Below are positions 6,902-11,760 of a DNA stretch of 23,522 nucleotides, one piece after another (position 1 is the stretch's first letter; each line of letters starts with the position of its first letter). A program made the translations under genes and the position numbers. The stretch comes from an uncultured archaeon (GTDB taxonomy: Archaea; Asgardarchaeota; Jordiarchaeia; Jordiarchaeales; Jordiarchaeaceae). The notes beneath the pieces were generated by a model. That model worked only from the letters and a program-made list of their open reading frames with translations, searched no databases and was not told the DNA's origin. The DNA is taken from positions 1-23,522 of the forward strand of contig CAZECW010000209.1 in NCBI GenBank assembly GCA_964510585.1, written 5' to 3'.

Positions 6902-7109
6902 TGGTGGGGACGGTGAGATTTCCATAGAGAAACATTGTTTCTCCAATTTGAACTCACGACTAGCAAGTCTCTCTGGCTCACTGCTCCAGAAGTTCATCAT
7001 CTTCTGGTCAGCTCAGCCAATATTCACAGCCTCTGGAGCCTGCCGTGCTGCCTAGTCGCGTTCAAAACCACAAACATGTTTTGAACAACACTGACTACAC
7101 TACGTCCCC
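6902..7109 (-). tRNA. trnW: tRNA-Trp(CCA) with three BHB introns: 18/19 (7090-7052, 39 nt), 37/38 (7032-6969, 64 nt), 59/60 (6946-6919, 28 nt); CCA encoded
   Basis: Spliced sequence GGGGACG TA GTGT AGTCAGGCA GCAC G GCAGG CTCCAGA CTTGC TAGTC GTGAG TTCAAAT CTCAC CGTCCCC A CCA folds as a full cloverleaf. Each intron has a 4-bp central helix with 3-nt bulges (AGTC/GACT; CTCC/AGAG with one mismatch; TTCA/TGGA). Confidence 0.92.
6969..7032 (-). ncRNA. box C/D guide sRNA embedded in the tRNA-Trp anticodon intron
   Basis: Degenerate C box GTGAATA (7027-7021), D' CTGA (7011-7008), perfect C' ATGATGA (7000-6994), D box GTGA (6981-6978). The D guide CTTCTGGAGC pairs with GCTCCAGAGG of the pre-tRNA, and its +5 nucleotide (G6986) faces C34. 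Confidence 0.8.
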
Positions 7110-7231: not shown

Positions 7232-7244
7232 AAAAATTAAAAAA
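7232..7244 (-). terminator. oligo-T terminator of the 5S rRNA transcript
   Basis: On the minus strand a pyrimidine tract CTTCCTTCTCTCTGC followed by TTTTTTAATTTTT lies directly after the 3' arm of the processing stem. Confidence 0.6.
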
Positions 7245-7271
7245 GCAGAGAGAAGGAAGTGGCGTCGCTGT

Positions 7272-7394
7272 TCCGTGTTCGGGATGAGAACGGGTAGTTC
7301 ACTATACACTATGACCGGCACCGAGATGCCAGTATTCGGTTTTCCCGGTCCCTCGCGGAGAGCAGTACTCACCGAATCGTGTATAGATTTGACT
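7272..7394 (-). rRNA. rrf: circularly permuted 5S rRNA gene: 3' half 7394-7327, linker 7326-7321, 5' half 7320-7272; precursor with BHB stem 7410-7261
   Basis: Joining 7272 to 7394 gives a 117-nt 5S: TGCCGGTCATAGTGTATAGTGAACTACCCGTTCTCATCCCGAACACGGA|AGTCAAATCTATACACGATTCGGTGAGTACTGCTCTCCGCGAGGGACCGGGAAAACCGAATACTGGCA. It has helix I TGCCGGT/ACTGGCA, helix II GTGTATAG/CTATACAC, helix III ACCCGT/ACGGAAGT, loop C CATCCCGAAC, ATTCGG/CCGAAT, loop E AGTA/GAA and a GCGA tetraloop. Confidence 0.93.
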
Positions 7395-7433
7395 TTCACG
7401 CAACGACGCCAAAAACCCACACGCAGTGCCGAA

Positions 7434-7447
7434 ATATAAATATTTCT
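7434..7447 (-). promoter_or_regulatory. BRE-TATA promoter of the permuted 5S gene
   Basis: AGAAATA-TTTATAT on the minus strand. Spacing places the start at or near G7410, the first base of the processing stem. Confidence 0.7.
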
Positions 7448-7737: not shown

Positions 7738-7768
7738 TTTTACACTAAAACTAGTCAATCACGCAAGC

Positions 7769-7904
7769 GCCCAAGTGGTGTAGCCCGGCCTATCATCGCG
7801 GCCTGTCACGTCGTGGACATAAAACGGGTCGTTTTATGGCGGGAACCCGAGACCTCAAAAATTCTTGTATTGTGGCGGGAATTCAAATCTCGGCTTGGGC
7901 GCCA
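7769..7904 (+). tRNA. trnD: tRNA-Asp(GTC) with two BHB introns: 45/46 (7817-7844, 28 nt) and 53/54 (7852-7881, 30 nt); CCA encoded
   Basis: Spliced GCCCAAG TG GTGT AGCCCGGCCTA TCAT C GCGGC CTGTCAC GTCGT GGAC CCGAG TTCAAAT CTCGG CTTGGGC G CCA. BHB central helices TCGT/GCGG and CCCG/CGGG; inner hairpin CATAAAAC/GTTTTATG. Confidence 0.9.
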
Positions 7905-8072: not shown

Positions 8073-8238
8073 GGGCTGCTAGCTCAGAGGCGCGACGTGA
8101 AACGTTTAGCCGAGAAGCTAGGTAGAGCGCCTGACTTCGCAGGTTTTCCTCCGAAGGGTGATGCTTTTAACCAGGTGGTCGCGAGTAGCCCTTGACCTTT
8201 GTCAGGGCTTGCGAATTCAAATCTCGCGCAGCCCGCCA
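8073..8238 (+). tRNA. trnK: tRNA-Lys(TTT) with three BHB introns: 15/16 (8088-8117, 30 nt), 30/31 (8134-8162, 29 nt), 53/54 (8186-8215, 30 nt); CCA encoded
   Basis: Spliced GGGCTGC TA GCTC AGCTAGGTA GAGC G CCTGG CTTTTAA CCAGG TGGTC GCGAG TTCAAAT CTCGC GCAGCCC G CCA. BHB central helices GCTC/GAGA (one mismatch), CGCC/GGTG and CGCG/TGCG, each with an inner hairpin. Confidence 0.9.
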
Positions 8239-8315: not shown

Positions 8316-8418
8316 TATTTCGTTCAAAAGTTTGTTAGTGTTATCCGTTGGTCTCTGTGGTTGTTTGAATGTTGTTCATCTATTGTTTGTAGCTTTTATT
8401 TTTTGAGAAGTGGTTATT

Positions 8419-11400
8419 ATGTCTGATGTTGAGCAGATTGATGGTTGGCGTGTTATTGAGGCTTTTATTGAGGAGAATGGTCTGGTTCGTCAACATTTAG
8501 ATTCTTACAATGAGTTCATTAAACATGGCCTACAGCAGATTGTGGATGAGGTTGGCAAAATTGAGCCTGAGGGCGAGAACTACTACGTTAAACTGGGTAA
8601 GATTGATGTGGGTAAGCCTACCATAAAAGAGGCTGACGGCTCCACCATGCCTGTTTTTCCCAACGAGGCTAGGATCCGCAATTTGACTTACGCGGCTAAT
8701 TTACATTTGGAAATGACCATAGTTTATAATGATGATAGGGGAGGTGGGACTGAGGATGCAACAACTGAGGTTTATATTGGCCGCCTTCCTATTATGCTCA
8801 AGTCCGAAAAGTGTCCTCTGTCCCAGTTAAGTAGAGAGGAGCTCATCACTCTAGGCGAGGATCCAGATGATCCGGGAGGCTACTTTATTATTAATGGCAG
8901 TGAAAGGGTTCTGGTTACTCAGGAGGATCTGGCGCCTAACCGTATTCTCATTGAGGTGGCCAATAAGAGTAGCTCGTCTACACATGTAGCTAAAGTGTTT
9001 AGTACAGCTCAGGGTTTCAGAGCACCTGTGACCATGGAGCGGCGGCGTGACGGTTCTCTAAGGGTTTCATTCCCCTCTGTTCCGGGGAAGATTCCACTAT
9101 TTGTTTTGATTCGCGCCCTTGGACTGGAAACCGATAAACAGATTGTAGACATTATTTCTGACGATGAAGAGATAATTCGGGAGCTTATTCCCTCTATTGA
9201 GATGGCGGCTCCCATTATTTCTCGTGATGATGCACTAGACTTTATTGGTAAACGTGTGGCTGTAGGCCAGACTAGGGATTATCGTTTGAAGAGAGCAGAA
9301 CAAGTGTTAGACCGTTACCTTCTCCCACACATCGGCACCACACCTAAGGATCGATTAAGAAAGGCATTCTACCTGGGCCAGATGGCCTCACGTATTATAG
9401 AGTTGGCTCTTGGTAGAAGAAGCGAGGATGACAAAGACCACTATTCTAATAAGAGGTTAAAGCTCGCGGGAGACCTTTTAATGAGTTTGTTCCGGGTGGC
9501 CTTTCTCAGCCTCTGCAGGGATATAAAATACCAGTTGGAGAGAAACGCTGTTAGAGGCAGACGTAGAAACATTAAGACCGCGGTTCGTGCAGATGTGATT
9601 ACAGACCGATTACACCATGCACTTGCAACCGGCAACTGGGTCGGGGGAAAAGCAGGGGTGAGTCAGCTCCTAGATAGAACCAACTACATGTCTGCATTAA
9701 GCCACCTACGGAGAGTGGTCTCGCCTCTGAGCAGAAGCCAACCCCACTTTGAAGCGCGTGACCTACATCCTACCCACTGGGGCAAAATATGCCCAAACGA
9801 AACTCCAGAAGGGCCTAACTGTGGTCTGGTCAAAAACTTGGCGCTACTAGCCTACATATCGGTAGGTGCAGACGAGGCGGAAGTGGAAAGCATATTCGTA
9901 GACCTTGGCGTTCAGCCCGTAGAGGAACTAGAGGGAATGAAGGGAGTTAAGGGAGCTCAAGTCTACCTTAACGGTCGACTAATAGGAGTGCATCAACAAC
10001 CATTAGCCTTTCTTGCAGAAGTTAAGAAGAGAAGGAGAAGCGGCCAGATAACCAACGAAGTTAATATCGCTTACTATCCCGATACCAACGAGATACAGGC
10101 TAACTGCGACGCTGGACGCGCCCGACGCCCTCTGATAATAGTGGAAAACGGAGTGCCGAAACTCACCTCTGAACATATTGCAAAACTCAGAAGCAAAGAA
10201 TGGAAGTTTAGTGACCTCATCCGTAGAGGTATCGTAGAGTTCTTAGACGCAGAAGAAGAGGAGAATTCACACATTGCAATGTATCCTAAAGACATAAACG
10301 AGAAAACTACCCACCTAGAAATTGCGCCAAGCTCAATATTAGGAATCTCTGCAAGCATAATTCCCTATCCTGAACATAACCAAAGCCCCAGAAATACCTA
10401 TGAAGCAGGGATGGTTAAACAAGCTCTAGGACTCTACGCTGCAAACTACAGGACGCGAGCAGACACGAGAGCCCACCTACTGCATTATCCACAAGTACCC
10501 ATAGTAAACACTAAAGCCACTATGCCTACTGGATTCGATAAAAGACCCGCGGGACAAAACTTCATAGTAGCAGTGCTATCCTATGAAGGGTACAACATAG
10601 AAGATGCCATAATAATTAACAAGGCCTCCATAGAGAGAGGACTCGGGAGAAGCACATTTTTCAGAAGCTACGAAGCTGAGGAGAGAAAATATCCCGGAGG
10701 GCAAGAAGATAAATTTGAGATACCCGACAAAAGCGTTAGAGGATACCGCGCCGCAGAAGCCTATCGCCACCTATCTGATGATGGCATAATCGAGCCCGAA
10801 GTTGAAGTCCAGGGTGGCGAAATAATAATTGGGAGAACAAGCCCACCCCGGTTCCTAGAGGAGGAAGCAGGGTTTGAAATGCCCACCCAAATCCGAAGAG
10901 AAACATCAACTAGTATGCGCCACGGAGAAACAGGAATAGTAGACACTGTATCAATAACTGAAACCATAGATGGAAACACTCTAGTCAAAGTAAAAATCAG
11001 AGACCAACGCATCCCAGAACTCGGAGATAAATTCGCCACAAGACATGGACAAAAGGGAATAATTGGGCTAATAGTACCCCAAGAAGACATGCCCTTTACA
11101 GAGGAAGGCATAGTACCAGACCTTATAGTCAACCCTCATGCTATACCCTCCAGAATGACCCTTGGACAAGTAATAGAATCGATAGCCGGAAAAGTAGGAG
11201 CACTCGGTGGAAGAAAAGTCGATGGAACTGCATTCAGCGGTGAACCCGTCAAAAAATTGTACCAAGAGCTAATTCAAAGGGGCTACAAATACAACGGCAG
11301 AGAAGTTATGTACAATGGGATAACTGGAAGAAAATACGAAGCGGACATATTCATAGGGGTAGTCTATTACCAAAAACTGCACCACATGGTAGCAGATAAA

Positions 11401-11760
11401 ATACATGCAAGAGCAAGGGGACCGGTACAAATACTTACAAGACAACCCACAGAAGGACGAGCCCGAGAAGGAGGGCTTAGATTCGGGGAAATGGAACGAG
11501 ACTGCCTAATTGGCCACGGAGCAGCTCTTCTCCTGAAGGAGAAGCTGGTTGAGGAGTCGGACAAGACCACCACTCTTGTGTGCGAAGAATGTGGTATGCT
11601 CGCTGTCTACGACAAGAACAAGGGCCGCTACTATTGTCCACTTTGTGGCGAGGACACTCGTGTAGCTAAGGTCAATATGAGCTACGCTTTCAAACTTTTA
11701 TTACAGGAGCTTATGGCCTTAGGTATTGCTCCGCGCCTCAAGCTCGCGGAGAAGACCTAA
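8419..11760 (+). CDS. rpo2: DNA-directed RNA polymerase subunit B (Rpo2), unsplit B''+B' form
   Basis: About 1113 aa with GGYFIINGSERV, HPTHWGKICPNETPEGPNCGLVKNL, PEHNQSPRN, GDKFATRHGQKG, NPHAIPSRMT, GGLRFGEMERDC and a C-terminal Zn ribbon (CEECG...CPLC). ATG 8419 is preferred over GTG 8410. Confidence 0.99.
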   Translation: MSDVEQIDGWRVIEAFIEENGLVRQHLDSYNEFIKHGLQQIVDEVGKIEPEGENYYVKLGKIDVGKPTIKEADGSTMPVFPNEARIRNLTYAANLHLEMTIVYNDDRGGGTEDATTEVYIGRLPIMLKSEKCPLSQLSREELITLGEDPDDPGGYFIINGSERVLVTQEDLAPNRILIEVANKSSSSTHVAKVFSTAQGFRAPVTMERRRDGSLRVSFPSVPGKIPLFVLIRALGLETDKQIVDIISDDEEIIRELIPSIEMAAPIISRDDALDFIGKRVAVGQTRDYRLKRAEQVLDRYLLPHIGTTPKDRLRKAFYLGQMASRIIELALGRRSEDDKDHYSNKRLKLAGDLLMSLFRVAFLSLCRDIKYQLERNAVRGRRRNIKTAVRADVITDRLHHALATGNWVGGKAGVSQLLDRTNYMSALSHLRRVVSPLSRSQPHFEARDLHPTHWGKICPNETPEGPNCGLVKNLALLAYISVGADEAEVESIFVDLGVQPVEELEGMKGVKGAQVYLNGRLIGVHQQPLAFLAEVKKRRRSGQITNEVNIAYYPDTNEIQANCDAGRARRPLIIVENGVPKLTSEHIAKLRSKEWKFSDLIRRGIVEFLDAEEEENSHIAMYPKDINEKTTHLEIAPSSILGISASIIPYPEHNQSPRNTYEAGMVKQALGLYAANYRTRADTRAHLLHYPQVPIVNTKATMPTGFDKRPAGQNFIVAVLSYEGYNIEDAIIINKASIERGLGRSTFFRSYEAEERKYPGGQEDKFEIPDKSVRGYRAAEAYRHLSDDGIIEPEVEVQGGEIIIGRTSPPRFLEEEAGFEMPTQIRRETSTSMRHGETGIVDTVSITETIDGNTLVKVKIRDQRIPELGDKFATRHGQKGIIGLIVPQEDMPFTEEGIVPDLIVNPHAIPSRMTLGQVIESIAGKVGALGGRKVDGTAFSGEPVKKLYQELIQRGYKYNGREVMYNGITGRKYEADIFIGVVYYQKLHHMVADKIHARARGPVQILTRQPTEGRAREGGLRFGEMERDCLIGHGAALLLKEKLVEESDKTTTLVCEECGMLAVYDKNKGRYYCPLCGEDTRVAKVNMSYAFKLLLQELMALGIAPRLKLAEKT

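What the first reader, a model, noticed from the sequence alone, without database searches (positions are those of the whole stretch)
7261..7410. 5S leader and trailer look like a tRNA-type intron split in two (natural permuted intron-exon layout)
Seen: trailer (A-CAGCGACGCC) plus leader (GGCGTCGTTG-CGTG-AA) has the same architecture as the neighbouring tRNA introns: one nucleotide, a hairpin, a 4-nt central-helix strand and a terminal AA (compare Lys 53/54 ...TGCG-AA, Asp 53/54 ...CGGG-AA, Trp 59/60 ...TGGA-AA). Joined, it would be 27 nt plus a loop, similar to the 28-30 nt introns nearby. Inference: the ancestor may have been a collinear 5S gene invaded by a short BHB intron in helix III and later permuted within that intron.
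Basis: inference. Interest (0 to 1): 0.6.

Follow-up and report, generated by a model that had tools for sequence, protein, structure and literature searches.

The report
Split-intron flanks of permuted 5S gene
The only 5S ribosomal RNA gene of this hot-spring Asgard archaeon is written back half first, and its two flanks pair into a tRNA-intron-type cut-and-rejoin signal; the layout is old and widespread in Asgard archaea, but descent from a real intron is plausible, not shown.

Summary
Observation confirmed. On the minus strand, 7394-7272 holds a 123-nt circularly permuted 5S gene (3' part, 6-nt cap, 5' part). Its leader (7410-7395) and trailer (7271-7261) form a 10-11-bp helix, a 4-bp central helix and two 3-nt bulges. 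This is the geometry of the eight tRNA introns I verified next to it. Cutting and joining would restore the conserved GGA-AGU of helix III.

This scan has noted the permuted Asgard 5S many times on other DNA. I found no paper on it.

The origin story is only partly supported. The same break point occurs in 18 of 27 Asgard families sampled, with flanks that pair in every lineage but differ in sequence, so the event long predates this genome.

No collinear 5S with an insert at this site turned up in 400 Asgard or 151 Thermoproteota genomes. Collinear 5S genes do carry tRNA-type mini-introns nearby (positions 35/36, 45/46 and 55/56). One Asgard sub-lineage has moved its break to 35/36, exactly one of those intron sites.

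Collinear and permuted families are interleaved on an RpoB tree, so the direction of change is unresolved. The size match with the neighbouring introns is generic, not evidence of kinship.

The parts
7434..7440 (-). TATA-like box (TTTATAT). Its centre lies about 26 nt upstream of the first leader base, so transcription probably starts at or next to the leader stem.
   Evidence: Sequence read. Collinear Asgard 5S genes show the same kind of box 25-30 nt upstream. That it acts as a promoter is inferred.
7395..7411 (-). Leader: the 3' strand of outer helix h' ((U)GGCGUCGUUG), the 4-nt central-helix strand CGUG, and AA, the first two bases of the 3' bulge. The predicted cut lies between 7395 and 7394.
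   Evidence: The same register is seen in 18 families.
7327..7394 (-). 5S rRNA 3' part (positions about 51-117: helix III 3' strand, helix II 3' strand, helices IV/V, helix I 3' strand).
   Evidence: nhmmer match to profile positions 47-117. Full-length alignment after rotation.
7321..7326 (-). Cap UCUCGG joining the native 3' and 5' ends. It folds as a U.G pair closing a CUCG loop on an 8-bp helix I.
   Evidence: Fold of the precursor and of the circle.
7272..7320 (-). 5S rRNA 5' part (positions about 2-50). It ends in CACG-GA. CACG is the exon strand of the central helix. The predicted cut lies between 7272 and 7271.
   Evidence: nhmmer match to profile positions 2-50. Weak Rfam match of model positions 27-51 at 7271-7295..
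7260..7271 (-). Trailer: A (third base of the 5' bulge) followed by CAGCGACGCC(A), the 5' strand of outer helix h'.
7232..7244 (-). Two T-runs (T6 and T5) 16 nt after the trailer stem. Probable terminator.
   Evidence: Sequence read. Collinear relatives also end in T-runs. Terminator function is inferred.
6902..7109 (-). tRNA-Trp(CCA) with introns 7090-7052 (39 nt), 7032-6969 (64 nt, box C/D-like) and 6946-6919 (28 nt). Used here as a comparison set.
   Evidence: ARAGORN after intron removal. Weak Rfam sR3 match at 6976-7031.
7767..7903 (+). tRNA-Asp(GUC) with introns 7817-7844 (28 nt, position 45/46) and 7852-7881 (30 nt, position 53/54). Comparison set.
   Evidence: ARAGORN after intron removal.
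8073..8238 (+). tRNA-Lys(UUU) with introns 8087-8113 (27 nt), 8134-8162 (29 nt) and 8186-8215 (30 nt). Comparison set.
   Evidence: ARAGORN after intron removal.

Best explanation
The 16-nt leader and 11-nt trailer of this permuted 5S gene together act as a tRNA-type intron opened in its outer hairpin.

Proposed mechanism, step by step:
1. In the primary transcript (about 7411 to about 7240, minus strand) the flanks pair into a 10-11-bp helix.
2. Leader CGUG displaces the helix III partner of exon CACG and forms the 4-bp central helix. This leaves two 3-nt bulges.
3. The splicing endonuclease cuts after GGA (7272) and before AGU (7394). In this genome the enzyme is probably a two-subunit, crenarchaeal-type enzyme.
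4. RtcB joins the two ends. This rebuilds helix III with its AA bulge and yields a 123-nt 5S closed on itself through the cap on helix I.
5. The leader and trailer are left as a paired by-product.

Shown here: the gene order, the pairing, its conservation and covariation, and the presence of the enzymes. Inferred: the cuts, the ligation and the circular product.

Historically, the arrangement is not a feature of this genome alone. It was already present in the common ancestor of most sampled Asgard families. The most likely origin is a collinear 5S carrying a BHB intron in helix III that was tandemly duplicated and lost its outer halves, as proposed for permuted tRNA and SRP RNA genes. That step is inference.
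For: - Gene order and full-length homology after rotation. This is the only 5S locus in the 96%-complete MAG.
- An in-register BHB unlikely by chance: 9 of 200,000 shuffles reach it. It is energetically accessible.
- Among 13 lineages with distinct flanks, the flank helix is 9-16 bp (median 12). Trailers paired with leaders of other lineages give a mean of 1.7 bp. The central helix tracks the exon: CACG/CGUG, UCGG/CCGA, CCGG/CCGG and GCGG/CCGC.
- There are two EndA paralogs. One is closest to the catalytic subunits of the Aeropyrum and Pyrobaculum heterotetramers. By my reading of the translated sequence, the other lacks the catalytic His; its best PDB match is the M. jannaschii enzyme. RtcB is present.
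- For the origin: collinear Asgard 5S genes are plain promoter-to-terminator units without BHB flanks.
- BHB mini-introns exist in collinear 5S genes 5-15 nt from this site.
- The second Asgard break point (35/36, in 30 of 135 f9 genomes) is the same site as the Thermoproteota mini-intron.
- Plagens et al. reached the same inference for SRP RNA.
Against: - No RNA data were available. My one metagenome scan for the junction used too generic a pattern and found only other organisms' collinear 5S genes.
- The exon-side outer helix is absent in this window, so cleavage needs an enzyme that accepts relaxed motifs.
- The predicted ancestor, a collinear gene with an intron at 50/51, was not found. 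It was absent from 400 Asgard genomes, the 49 collinear Asgard genes and the 145 Thermoproteota genes.
- No vestigial half-genes flank any permuted or collinear copy.
- No contiguous hairpin related to trailer plus leader exists elsewhere in the genome.
- Collinear families are scattered on the RpoB tree, so the direction of change is open.
Confidence: 0.6

Rival explanations
1. The direction is reversed. The permuted gene is ancestral for Asgard archaea, and today's collinear Asgard 5S genes are reversions. A tandem duplication of the permuted unit creates a collinear gene whose 'intron' is trailer plus spacer plus leader, and this insert is then lost. A collinear 5S with an intron at GGA|AGU would then be a descendant, not the ancestor. 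The first origin of the permutation stays unexplained.
For: - On the RpoB tree rooted with Bathyarchaeia, permuted families include the deepest branches.
- Collinear families fall in at least four places on that tree, and two separations are forced by well-supported branches.
- One clade of all collinear genomes is rejected (AU p = 6.8e-6).
- G024 holds two tandem permuted copies. There the 5' part, a 41-nt spacer and the next 3' part read as exactly such a collinear gene.
Against: - This is a single-protein tree built with a quick search, and long branches sit at the root (flagged).
- The G024 duplication is not shared by its sisters G043 and G059 and contains a scaffold gap.
- No collinear gene with a leftover insert at the site was found.
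- Long coexistence of both gene types followed by differential loss would give the same pattern.
Confidence: 0.3
2. The flanks are not intron-derived. The gene was permuted first, for example in a spare copy, and a BHB evolved afterwards at the new ends. Only about 4 + 8 paired bases are needed, and helix III already supplies one strand.
For: - Flank sequences turn over completely between lineages.
- In families f5, f9 and f13 the flanks carry extra hairpins and long-range stems that look more like processing stems than mini-introns.
- No intron-bearing intermediate was found at the site.
Against: - A permuted copy without a working junction gives no 5S, so it could only drift in a genome with another copy. 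Nearly all sampled genomes have one 5S locus.
- The break sits exactly where BHB geometry restores GGA-AGU.
- The second break point coincides with a site that is an intron in collinear genes elsewhere.
Confidence: 0.15
3. The permuted gene descends from a split gene. On this view the two 5S halves were once separate transcription units joined in trans through complementary flanks, as in the Nanoarchaeum split tRNAs, and later came to lie next to each other.
For: The leader/trailer pairing is what a trans-spliced pair would need. In principle the layout equals two adjacent half-genes.
Against: - In every locus examined the halves are contiguous and joined by a short structured cap (often a UUCG-type loop), with no promoter between them.
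- No genome showed halves at separate loci.
Confidence: 0.05

Closest known systems
Permuted, circularised SRP RNA gene of Thermoproteus tenax / T. uzoniensis (Plagens et al. 2015, eLife, PMC4731332)
   Same: The 3' part is encoded before the 5' part. Leader and trailer fold into a BHB cut by a heterotetramer-type splicing endonuclease, and ligation restores a functional helix. The organism has an extreme tRNA intron load, and a C/D box sRNA gene lies nearby. [quoted passage not shown]
   Different: The RNA here is a different one (5S rRNA, a ribosome component). The distribution is far wider: 18 of 27 Asgard families sampled, against two Thermoproteus species. Processing is not shown experimentally here.
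Circularly permuted tRNA genes (Cyanidioschyzon merolae, Soma et al. 2007; Thermofilum pendens, Chan et al. 2011) - from my own knowledge; the first is cited in PMC4267664
   Same: Swapped halves, a BHB formed by the transcript ends and a circular intermediate. Break points coincide with known intron positions, and the accepted origin model is tandem duplication of an intron-bearing gene.
   Different: In tRNAs the linker between the native ends is removed by RNase P and tRNase Z to give a linear product. Here the linker is a 6-nt structured cap on helix I and no such processing signal is evident.
BHB processing stems and circular intermediates of archaeal 16S/23S rRNA, including the circularly permuted 23S of Pyrococcus furiosus (PMC7758197) and circular 23S in ribosomes (PMC12918454)
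   Same: The same enzymes (EndA, RtcB) act on an rRNA precursor, with circularisation.
   Different: There the gene is collinear and the BHB brackets the native ends. Here the gene itself is permuted and the BHB brackets an internal site (helix III). PMC12918454 states that 5S is not processed this way in the species studied.
Permuted mitochondrial 5S rRNAs (Valach et al. 2014, PMC4267664)
   Same: 5S rRNA with rearranged order of its parts.
   Different: These are organellar, with no BHB splicing, and the mechanism is unrelated.

Membership tests
Archaeal bulge-helix-bulge (tRNA-type) intron | Central helix of 4 bp | tested here: met
   Exon CACG (7277-7274) pairs with leader CGUG (7400-7397), 4/4 Watson-Crick.
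Archaeal bulge-helix-bulge (tRNA-type) intron | Two 3-nt bulges on opposite strands, with each cut two bases into its bulge | tested here: met
   The bulges are GA|A and AA|A. These cut positions rebuild the conserved GGAAGU. This tests geometry only; cleavage itself was not tested.
Archaeal bulge-helix-bulge (tRNA-type) intron | Outer helix on the intron side (h') | tested here: met
   10-11 contiguous base pairs between trailer and leader. The helix is 9-16 bp in 13 lineages with distinct sequences.
Archaeal bulge-helix-bulge (tRNA-type) intron | Outer helix on the exon side (h) | tested here: not met
   An A.G mismatch lies next to the central helix, with 0 contiguous pairs in this window. 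Some relatives have 3 bp. This is therefore a relaxed motif.
Archaeal bulge-helix-bulge (tRNA-type) intron | One contiguous insert between two collinear exons | tested here: not met
   The two halves lie at opposite ends of the transcript. It works like an intron but is not one in the gene.
Archaeal bulge-helix-bulge (tRNA-type) intron | Splicing endonuclease and RtcB ligase encoded | tested here: met
   Two EndA paralogs and one RtcB are present in the MAG.
Circularly permuted, BHB-processed RNA genes | 3' part upstream of 5' part in one unit, with the native ends joined by a short linker | tested here: met
   nhmmer profile positions 47-117 are followed by 2-50, with 5 unmatched bases between the two matches. 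By the sequence the cap is the 6-nt TCTCGG at 7326-7321.
Circularly permuted, BHB-processed RNA genes | Transcript ends form the BHB and the junction restores the canonical sequence | tested here: met
Circularly permuted, BHB-processed RNA genes | Circular RNA intermediate or product | not testable with these tools
   No RNA data were reachable, and the junction scan of metagenome contigs was uninformative.
5S rRNA (Rfam RF00001) | Match to the covariance model at or above the gathering score | tested here: not met
   In genomic order, only model positions 27-51 match, at 21.7 bits against a cut-off of 38. After rotation the sequence aligns end to end with collinear relatives and folds as a 5S. 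The failure is due to the permutation.
Ordinary rRNA processing stem | Helix formed by sequences flanking the native 5' and 3' ends | tested here: not met
   The flanks bracket a break in helix III. Collinear Asgard 5S genes have no conserved flanking helix or BHB.

The most novel reading that the evidence does not exclude
5S rRNA genes of archaea may cycle between three interconvertible states: plain collinear, collinear with a BHB mini-intron in helix III / loop C, and circularly permuted at that intron site. The permuted state would already have been present in the common ancestor of most or all Asgard archaea, and hence in the lineage that gave rise to eukaryotes. Collinear Asgard genes would be reversions, and break points would move between helix III strands that look alike (CCGG).
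Probability: 0.3. Interest if true: 0.8.

Novelty: new variant of a known kind. Interest (0 to 1): 0.68.

Why it matters
5S rRNA is a universal ribosome part and is usually the simplest rRNA gene to find. If most Asgard archaea can only make it by tRNA-style cutting and rejoining, three things follow:
- Ribosome assembly in the closest known relatives of eukaryotes depends on the splicing machinery.
- Their 5S is probably a closed ring.
- Standard gene finders miss it. Rfam finds nothing above threshold in this window.

The comparative data gathered here turn the origin question into something testable. Mini-introns and permutation points share sites in helix III / loop C. That is the pattern known for permuted tRNA genes, and it points to intron gain followed by duplication as a general route to rearranged RNA genes.

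Tried and rejected
- **Junction scan.** I scanned metagenome contigs for the spliced junction with an 18-base plus 2-degenerate pattern. The pattern also fits many unrelated collinear 5S genes. None of the 120 loci resembles the Jordarchaeia 5S.
- **aEF-2 marker.** I tried aEF-2 as a naming and tree marker. It confirmed the genome as Candidatus Jordarchaeia QZM_A3. I used RpoB instead.
- **Genome-wide census.** A strict census of BHB mini-introns (central helix 4/4, h' at least 7, h at least 3, length 24-45) gave 464 hits against 301 in block-shuffled DNA. That is too noisy for a length distribution.
- **Related hairpin.** A search for a contiguous hairpin related to trailer plus leader elsewhere in the genome gave only chance-like matches.
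- **Vestigial half-genes.** None was found beside permuted or collinear copies, apart from the G024 tandem.
- **Synteny.** 5S lies 1-8.5 kb upstream of rpoB in f1 and f3 (permuted) and f12 (collinear), but no other gene is shared. This is too weak to claim an orthologous locus.
- **Pseudogene reading rejected.** This is the only 5S locus and it is conserved across the genus at 84-99% identity.

Full report
**What is there.** On the minus strand of the window, a TATA-like box (7440-7434) is followed by these elements in order:
- a 16-nt leader (7410-7395);
- the 3' two-thirds of a 5S rRNA (7394-7327);
- a 6-nt cap (7326-7321);
- the 5' third of the 5S (7320-7272);
- an 11-nt trailer (7271-7261);
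- T-runs.

Rfam at gathering threshold and ARAGORN find nothing in the whole window. The only Rfam trace of 5S in the 3.78-Mb MAG is a 25-nt piece here. A profile search of the whole genome finds only this locus, as two matches in swapped order. After rotation, the 121-nt sequence aligns end to end with eight collinear 5S genes of the same phylum. The junction GGA|AGU falls in their invariant GGAAGT. An aEF-2 gene identical to a public record identifies the genome as Candidatus Jordarchaeia archaeon QZM_A3, an Asgard archaeon.

**The observation.**
- The trailer stem CAGCGACGCC pairs with the leader GGCGUCGUUG (10 bp, or 11 with 7411/7260).
- Leader CGUG pairs with exon CACG.
- The bulges are GA|A and AA|A.
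- This is BHB geometry with cuts two bases into each bulge. It is the same layout as the eight introns of the three flanking tRNA genes.
- I confirmed those tRNAs by removing the predicted introns and obtaining Lys(UUU), Asp(GUC) and Trp(CCA) from ARAGORN.
- Six of the eight introns are 27-30 nt. The virtual 5S intron is 27 nt plus a loop.
- Shuffled flanks reach the same in-register pairing in 9 of 200,000 trials.
- The BHB conformer of the precursor costs 0.2 kcal/mol relative to the minimum-energy fold, which already contains the 11-bp flank helix.
- The exon-side outer helix is missing, so the motif is of the relaxed kind.
- The genome encodes RtcB and two EndA paralogs. One EndA paralog is closest to the catalytic subunits of the Aeropyrum and Pyrobaculum heterotetramers. 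By my reading of its sequence, the other lacks the catalytic histidine.
- According to Plagens et al., heterotetrameric enzymes have the most relaxed substrate recognition.

**Conservation.**
- A DNA search and an Rfam survey of 151 genomes of the phylum, followed by profile searches on the loci I fetched, show the swapped order in 18 of 27 families sampled. Those families are f1-f6, f8, f9, f13-f15, f17-f22 and f25.
- Plain collinear 5S genes occur in f7, f10, f12, f16, f23 and f26.
- In nearly all permuted families the break is at GGA|AGU, or one base further on.
- The flank helix is present in each lineage (9-16 bp in 13 lineages with distinct sequences) but shares no sequence between lineages. 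Trailers paired with foreign leaders average 1.7 bp.
- The central helix follows the exon sequence.
- In f5, f9 and f13 the leader strand of the flank helix lies further upstream, and an extra hairpin is inserted.
- This is strong comparative evidence that the BHB is functional. It also shows that the arrangement long predates Jordarchaeia.
- This scan has reported the permuted Asgard 5S on many other genomes. My literature searches found no paper describing it.

**Testing the origin idea.** The results are as follows.
1. Collinear Asgard 5S genes are simple promoter-to-terminator units with no conserved flanking helix or BHB. The flanks are therefore not inherited processing stems.
2. No collinear gene with an insert at 50/51 was found.
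   - Of the 49 collinear Asgard genes in the 151-genome survey, 48 are of normal length. The exception, G133, carries its insert at 55/56 (see point 3).
   - A pattern for a 12-60-nt insert at the site found no true case in 400 Asgard genomes.
   - None of the 145 Thermoproteota 5S genes has one there.
3. tRNA-type mini-introns do occur in collinear 5S genes close by.
   - G133 (family f7) has a 32-nt insert after AGUUAA (position 55/56). It has a 4/4 central helix, both bulges and both outer helices. Its sister genomes lack it.
   - Twelve Thermoproteota have a 17-20-nt insert at 35/36 with a central helix CCGU/GCGG and a covarying hairpin.
   - One further Thermoproteota genome has an 18-nt insert at 45/46.
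   - Scan notes report similar inserts in Woesearchaeota. I did not test those.
4. A second permutation point exists.
   - In 30 of 135 genomes of family f9 the break is at 35/36.
   - These genomes are nested among f9 lineages that break at 50-52.
   - Their leader and trailer are homologous to those of the neighbouring lineages.
   - The break point therefore moved by 16 nt. The palindromic CCGG of helix III lets the same leader pair with either strand.
   - The new site is exactly the Thermoproteota intron site.
5. Permuted genes can carry further introns, as in f9 genus g10 and in G101.
6. G024 has two tandem permuted copies. There the 5' part, a 41-nt spacer and the next 3' part read as a collinear gene with an 'intron' at the site. 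Its sisters lack the duplication, and the second copy holds a scaffold gap.

**Direction of change.**
- On an RpoB tree of 61 Asgard and 5 Bathyarchaeia genomes, collinear families fall in at least four places: with f9, as f10+f16, as f12, and as f7+f26 next to Jordarchaeia.
- The deepest branches on that tree are permuted.
- Forcing all collinear genomes into one clade is rejected (log-likelihood difference 197, AU p = 6.8e-6).
- One early permutation with several reversions needs fewer steps than eight or more independent permutations at one site. Long coexistence of both gene types is a further possibility.
- This is a single-protein, quick-search tree with long branches near the root, so I do not regard the direction as settled.

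**Verdict.**
- The functional reading, flanks acting as a split BHB intron, is well supported short of RNA evidence.
- The origin from a true intron is the most economical explanation. It gains support from shared intron and break sites, but the specific intermediate was not found.
- The resemblance in size to the neighbouring tRNA introns follows from BHB geometry plus a roughly 10-bp helix. It says nothing about common descent.

Noticed in passing
L046-L048, L058 (f9 genomes G149, G054, G131, G068), compared with L056 (G134): There is a second permutation point of the 5S gene at 35/36 in loop C (...ACCCGGUC| and |CCAUCCGAAC). It occurs in 30 of 135 f9 genomes, and the leader and trailer are homologous to those of neighbours that break at 50-52. 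A 16-nt segment has moved from the end of the gene to its start.
   Followed up: partly
L230, L232-L242 (Thermoproteota genomes, e.g. G169:C5:32217-32355); L231 (G304:C116:1156-1294): Collinear 5S genes of 137-140 nt carry a 17-20-nt BHB-shaped mini-intron at 35/36 (12 genomes) or an 18-nt one at 45/46 (1 genome). The hairpin covaries. I found no paper on 5S introns.
   Followed up: partly
L045 (G133:C2:29256-29407): A collinear Asgard 5S (family f7) has a 32-nt full hBHBh' intron after AGUUAA (position 55/56). It is absent from its sister genomes G087, G139 and G148.
   Followed up: partly
L046, L047 (f9 genus g10); L064 (G101, f21): Permuted 5S genes carry an extra insert of about 30 nt, in helix IV/V in genus g10 and in loop C in G101. 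These are probably additional BHB introns.
   Followed up: no
L014 1468-1860 (G024:C18): Two tandem permuted 5S copies are separated by a 41-nt spacer, and each trailer pairs with its own leader. An N-run lies inside copy 2. The sister genomes G043 and G059 show one copy.
   Followed up: partly
window 6969-7032 (-): The 64-nt intron at 37/38 of tRNA-Trp looks like a box C/D sRNA (Rfam sR3, E = 0.044, below threshold). This recalls the tRNA-Trp intron sRNA of Euryarchaeota. Plagens et al. also noted C/D sRNA genes next to the permuted SRP RNA gene.
   Followed up: no
G000:C126:10797-12956 (L065): After the Jordarchaeia themselves, the aEF-2 of this Asgard genome is closest to Bathyarchaeia sequences (63-68% identity). 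No other Asgard sequence appears among the 80 best loci.
   Followed up: no
G000:C58:3702-5036 (L069): The RtcB ligase gene has one in-frame TGA inside a full-length match. It may be a mini-intron, a recoding site or a sequencing error.
   Followed up: no
window 7261-7410 and 8410-11760; L221, L222, L223: 5S lies 1-8.5 kb upstream of rpoB in f1 and f3 (permuted) and in f12 (collinear). No other neighbouring gene is shared.
   Followed up: partly
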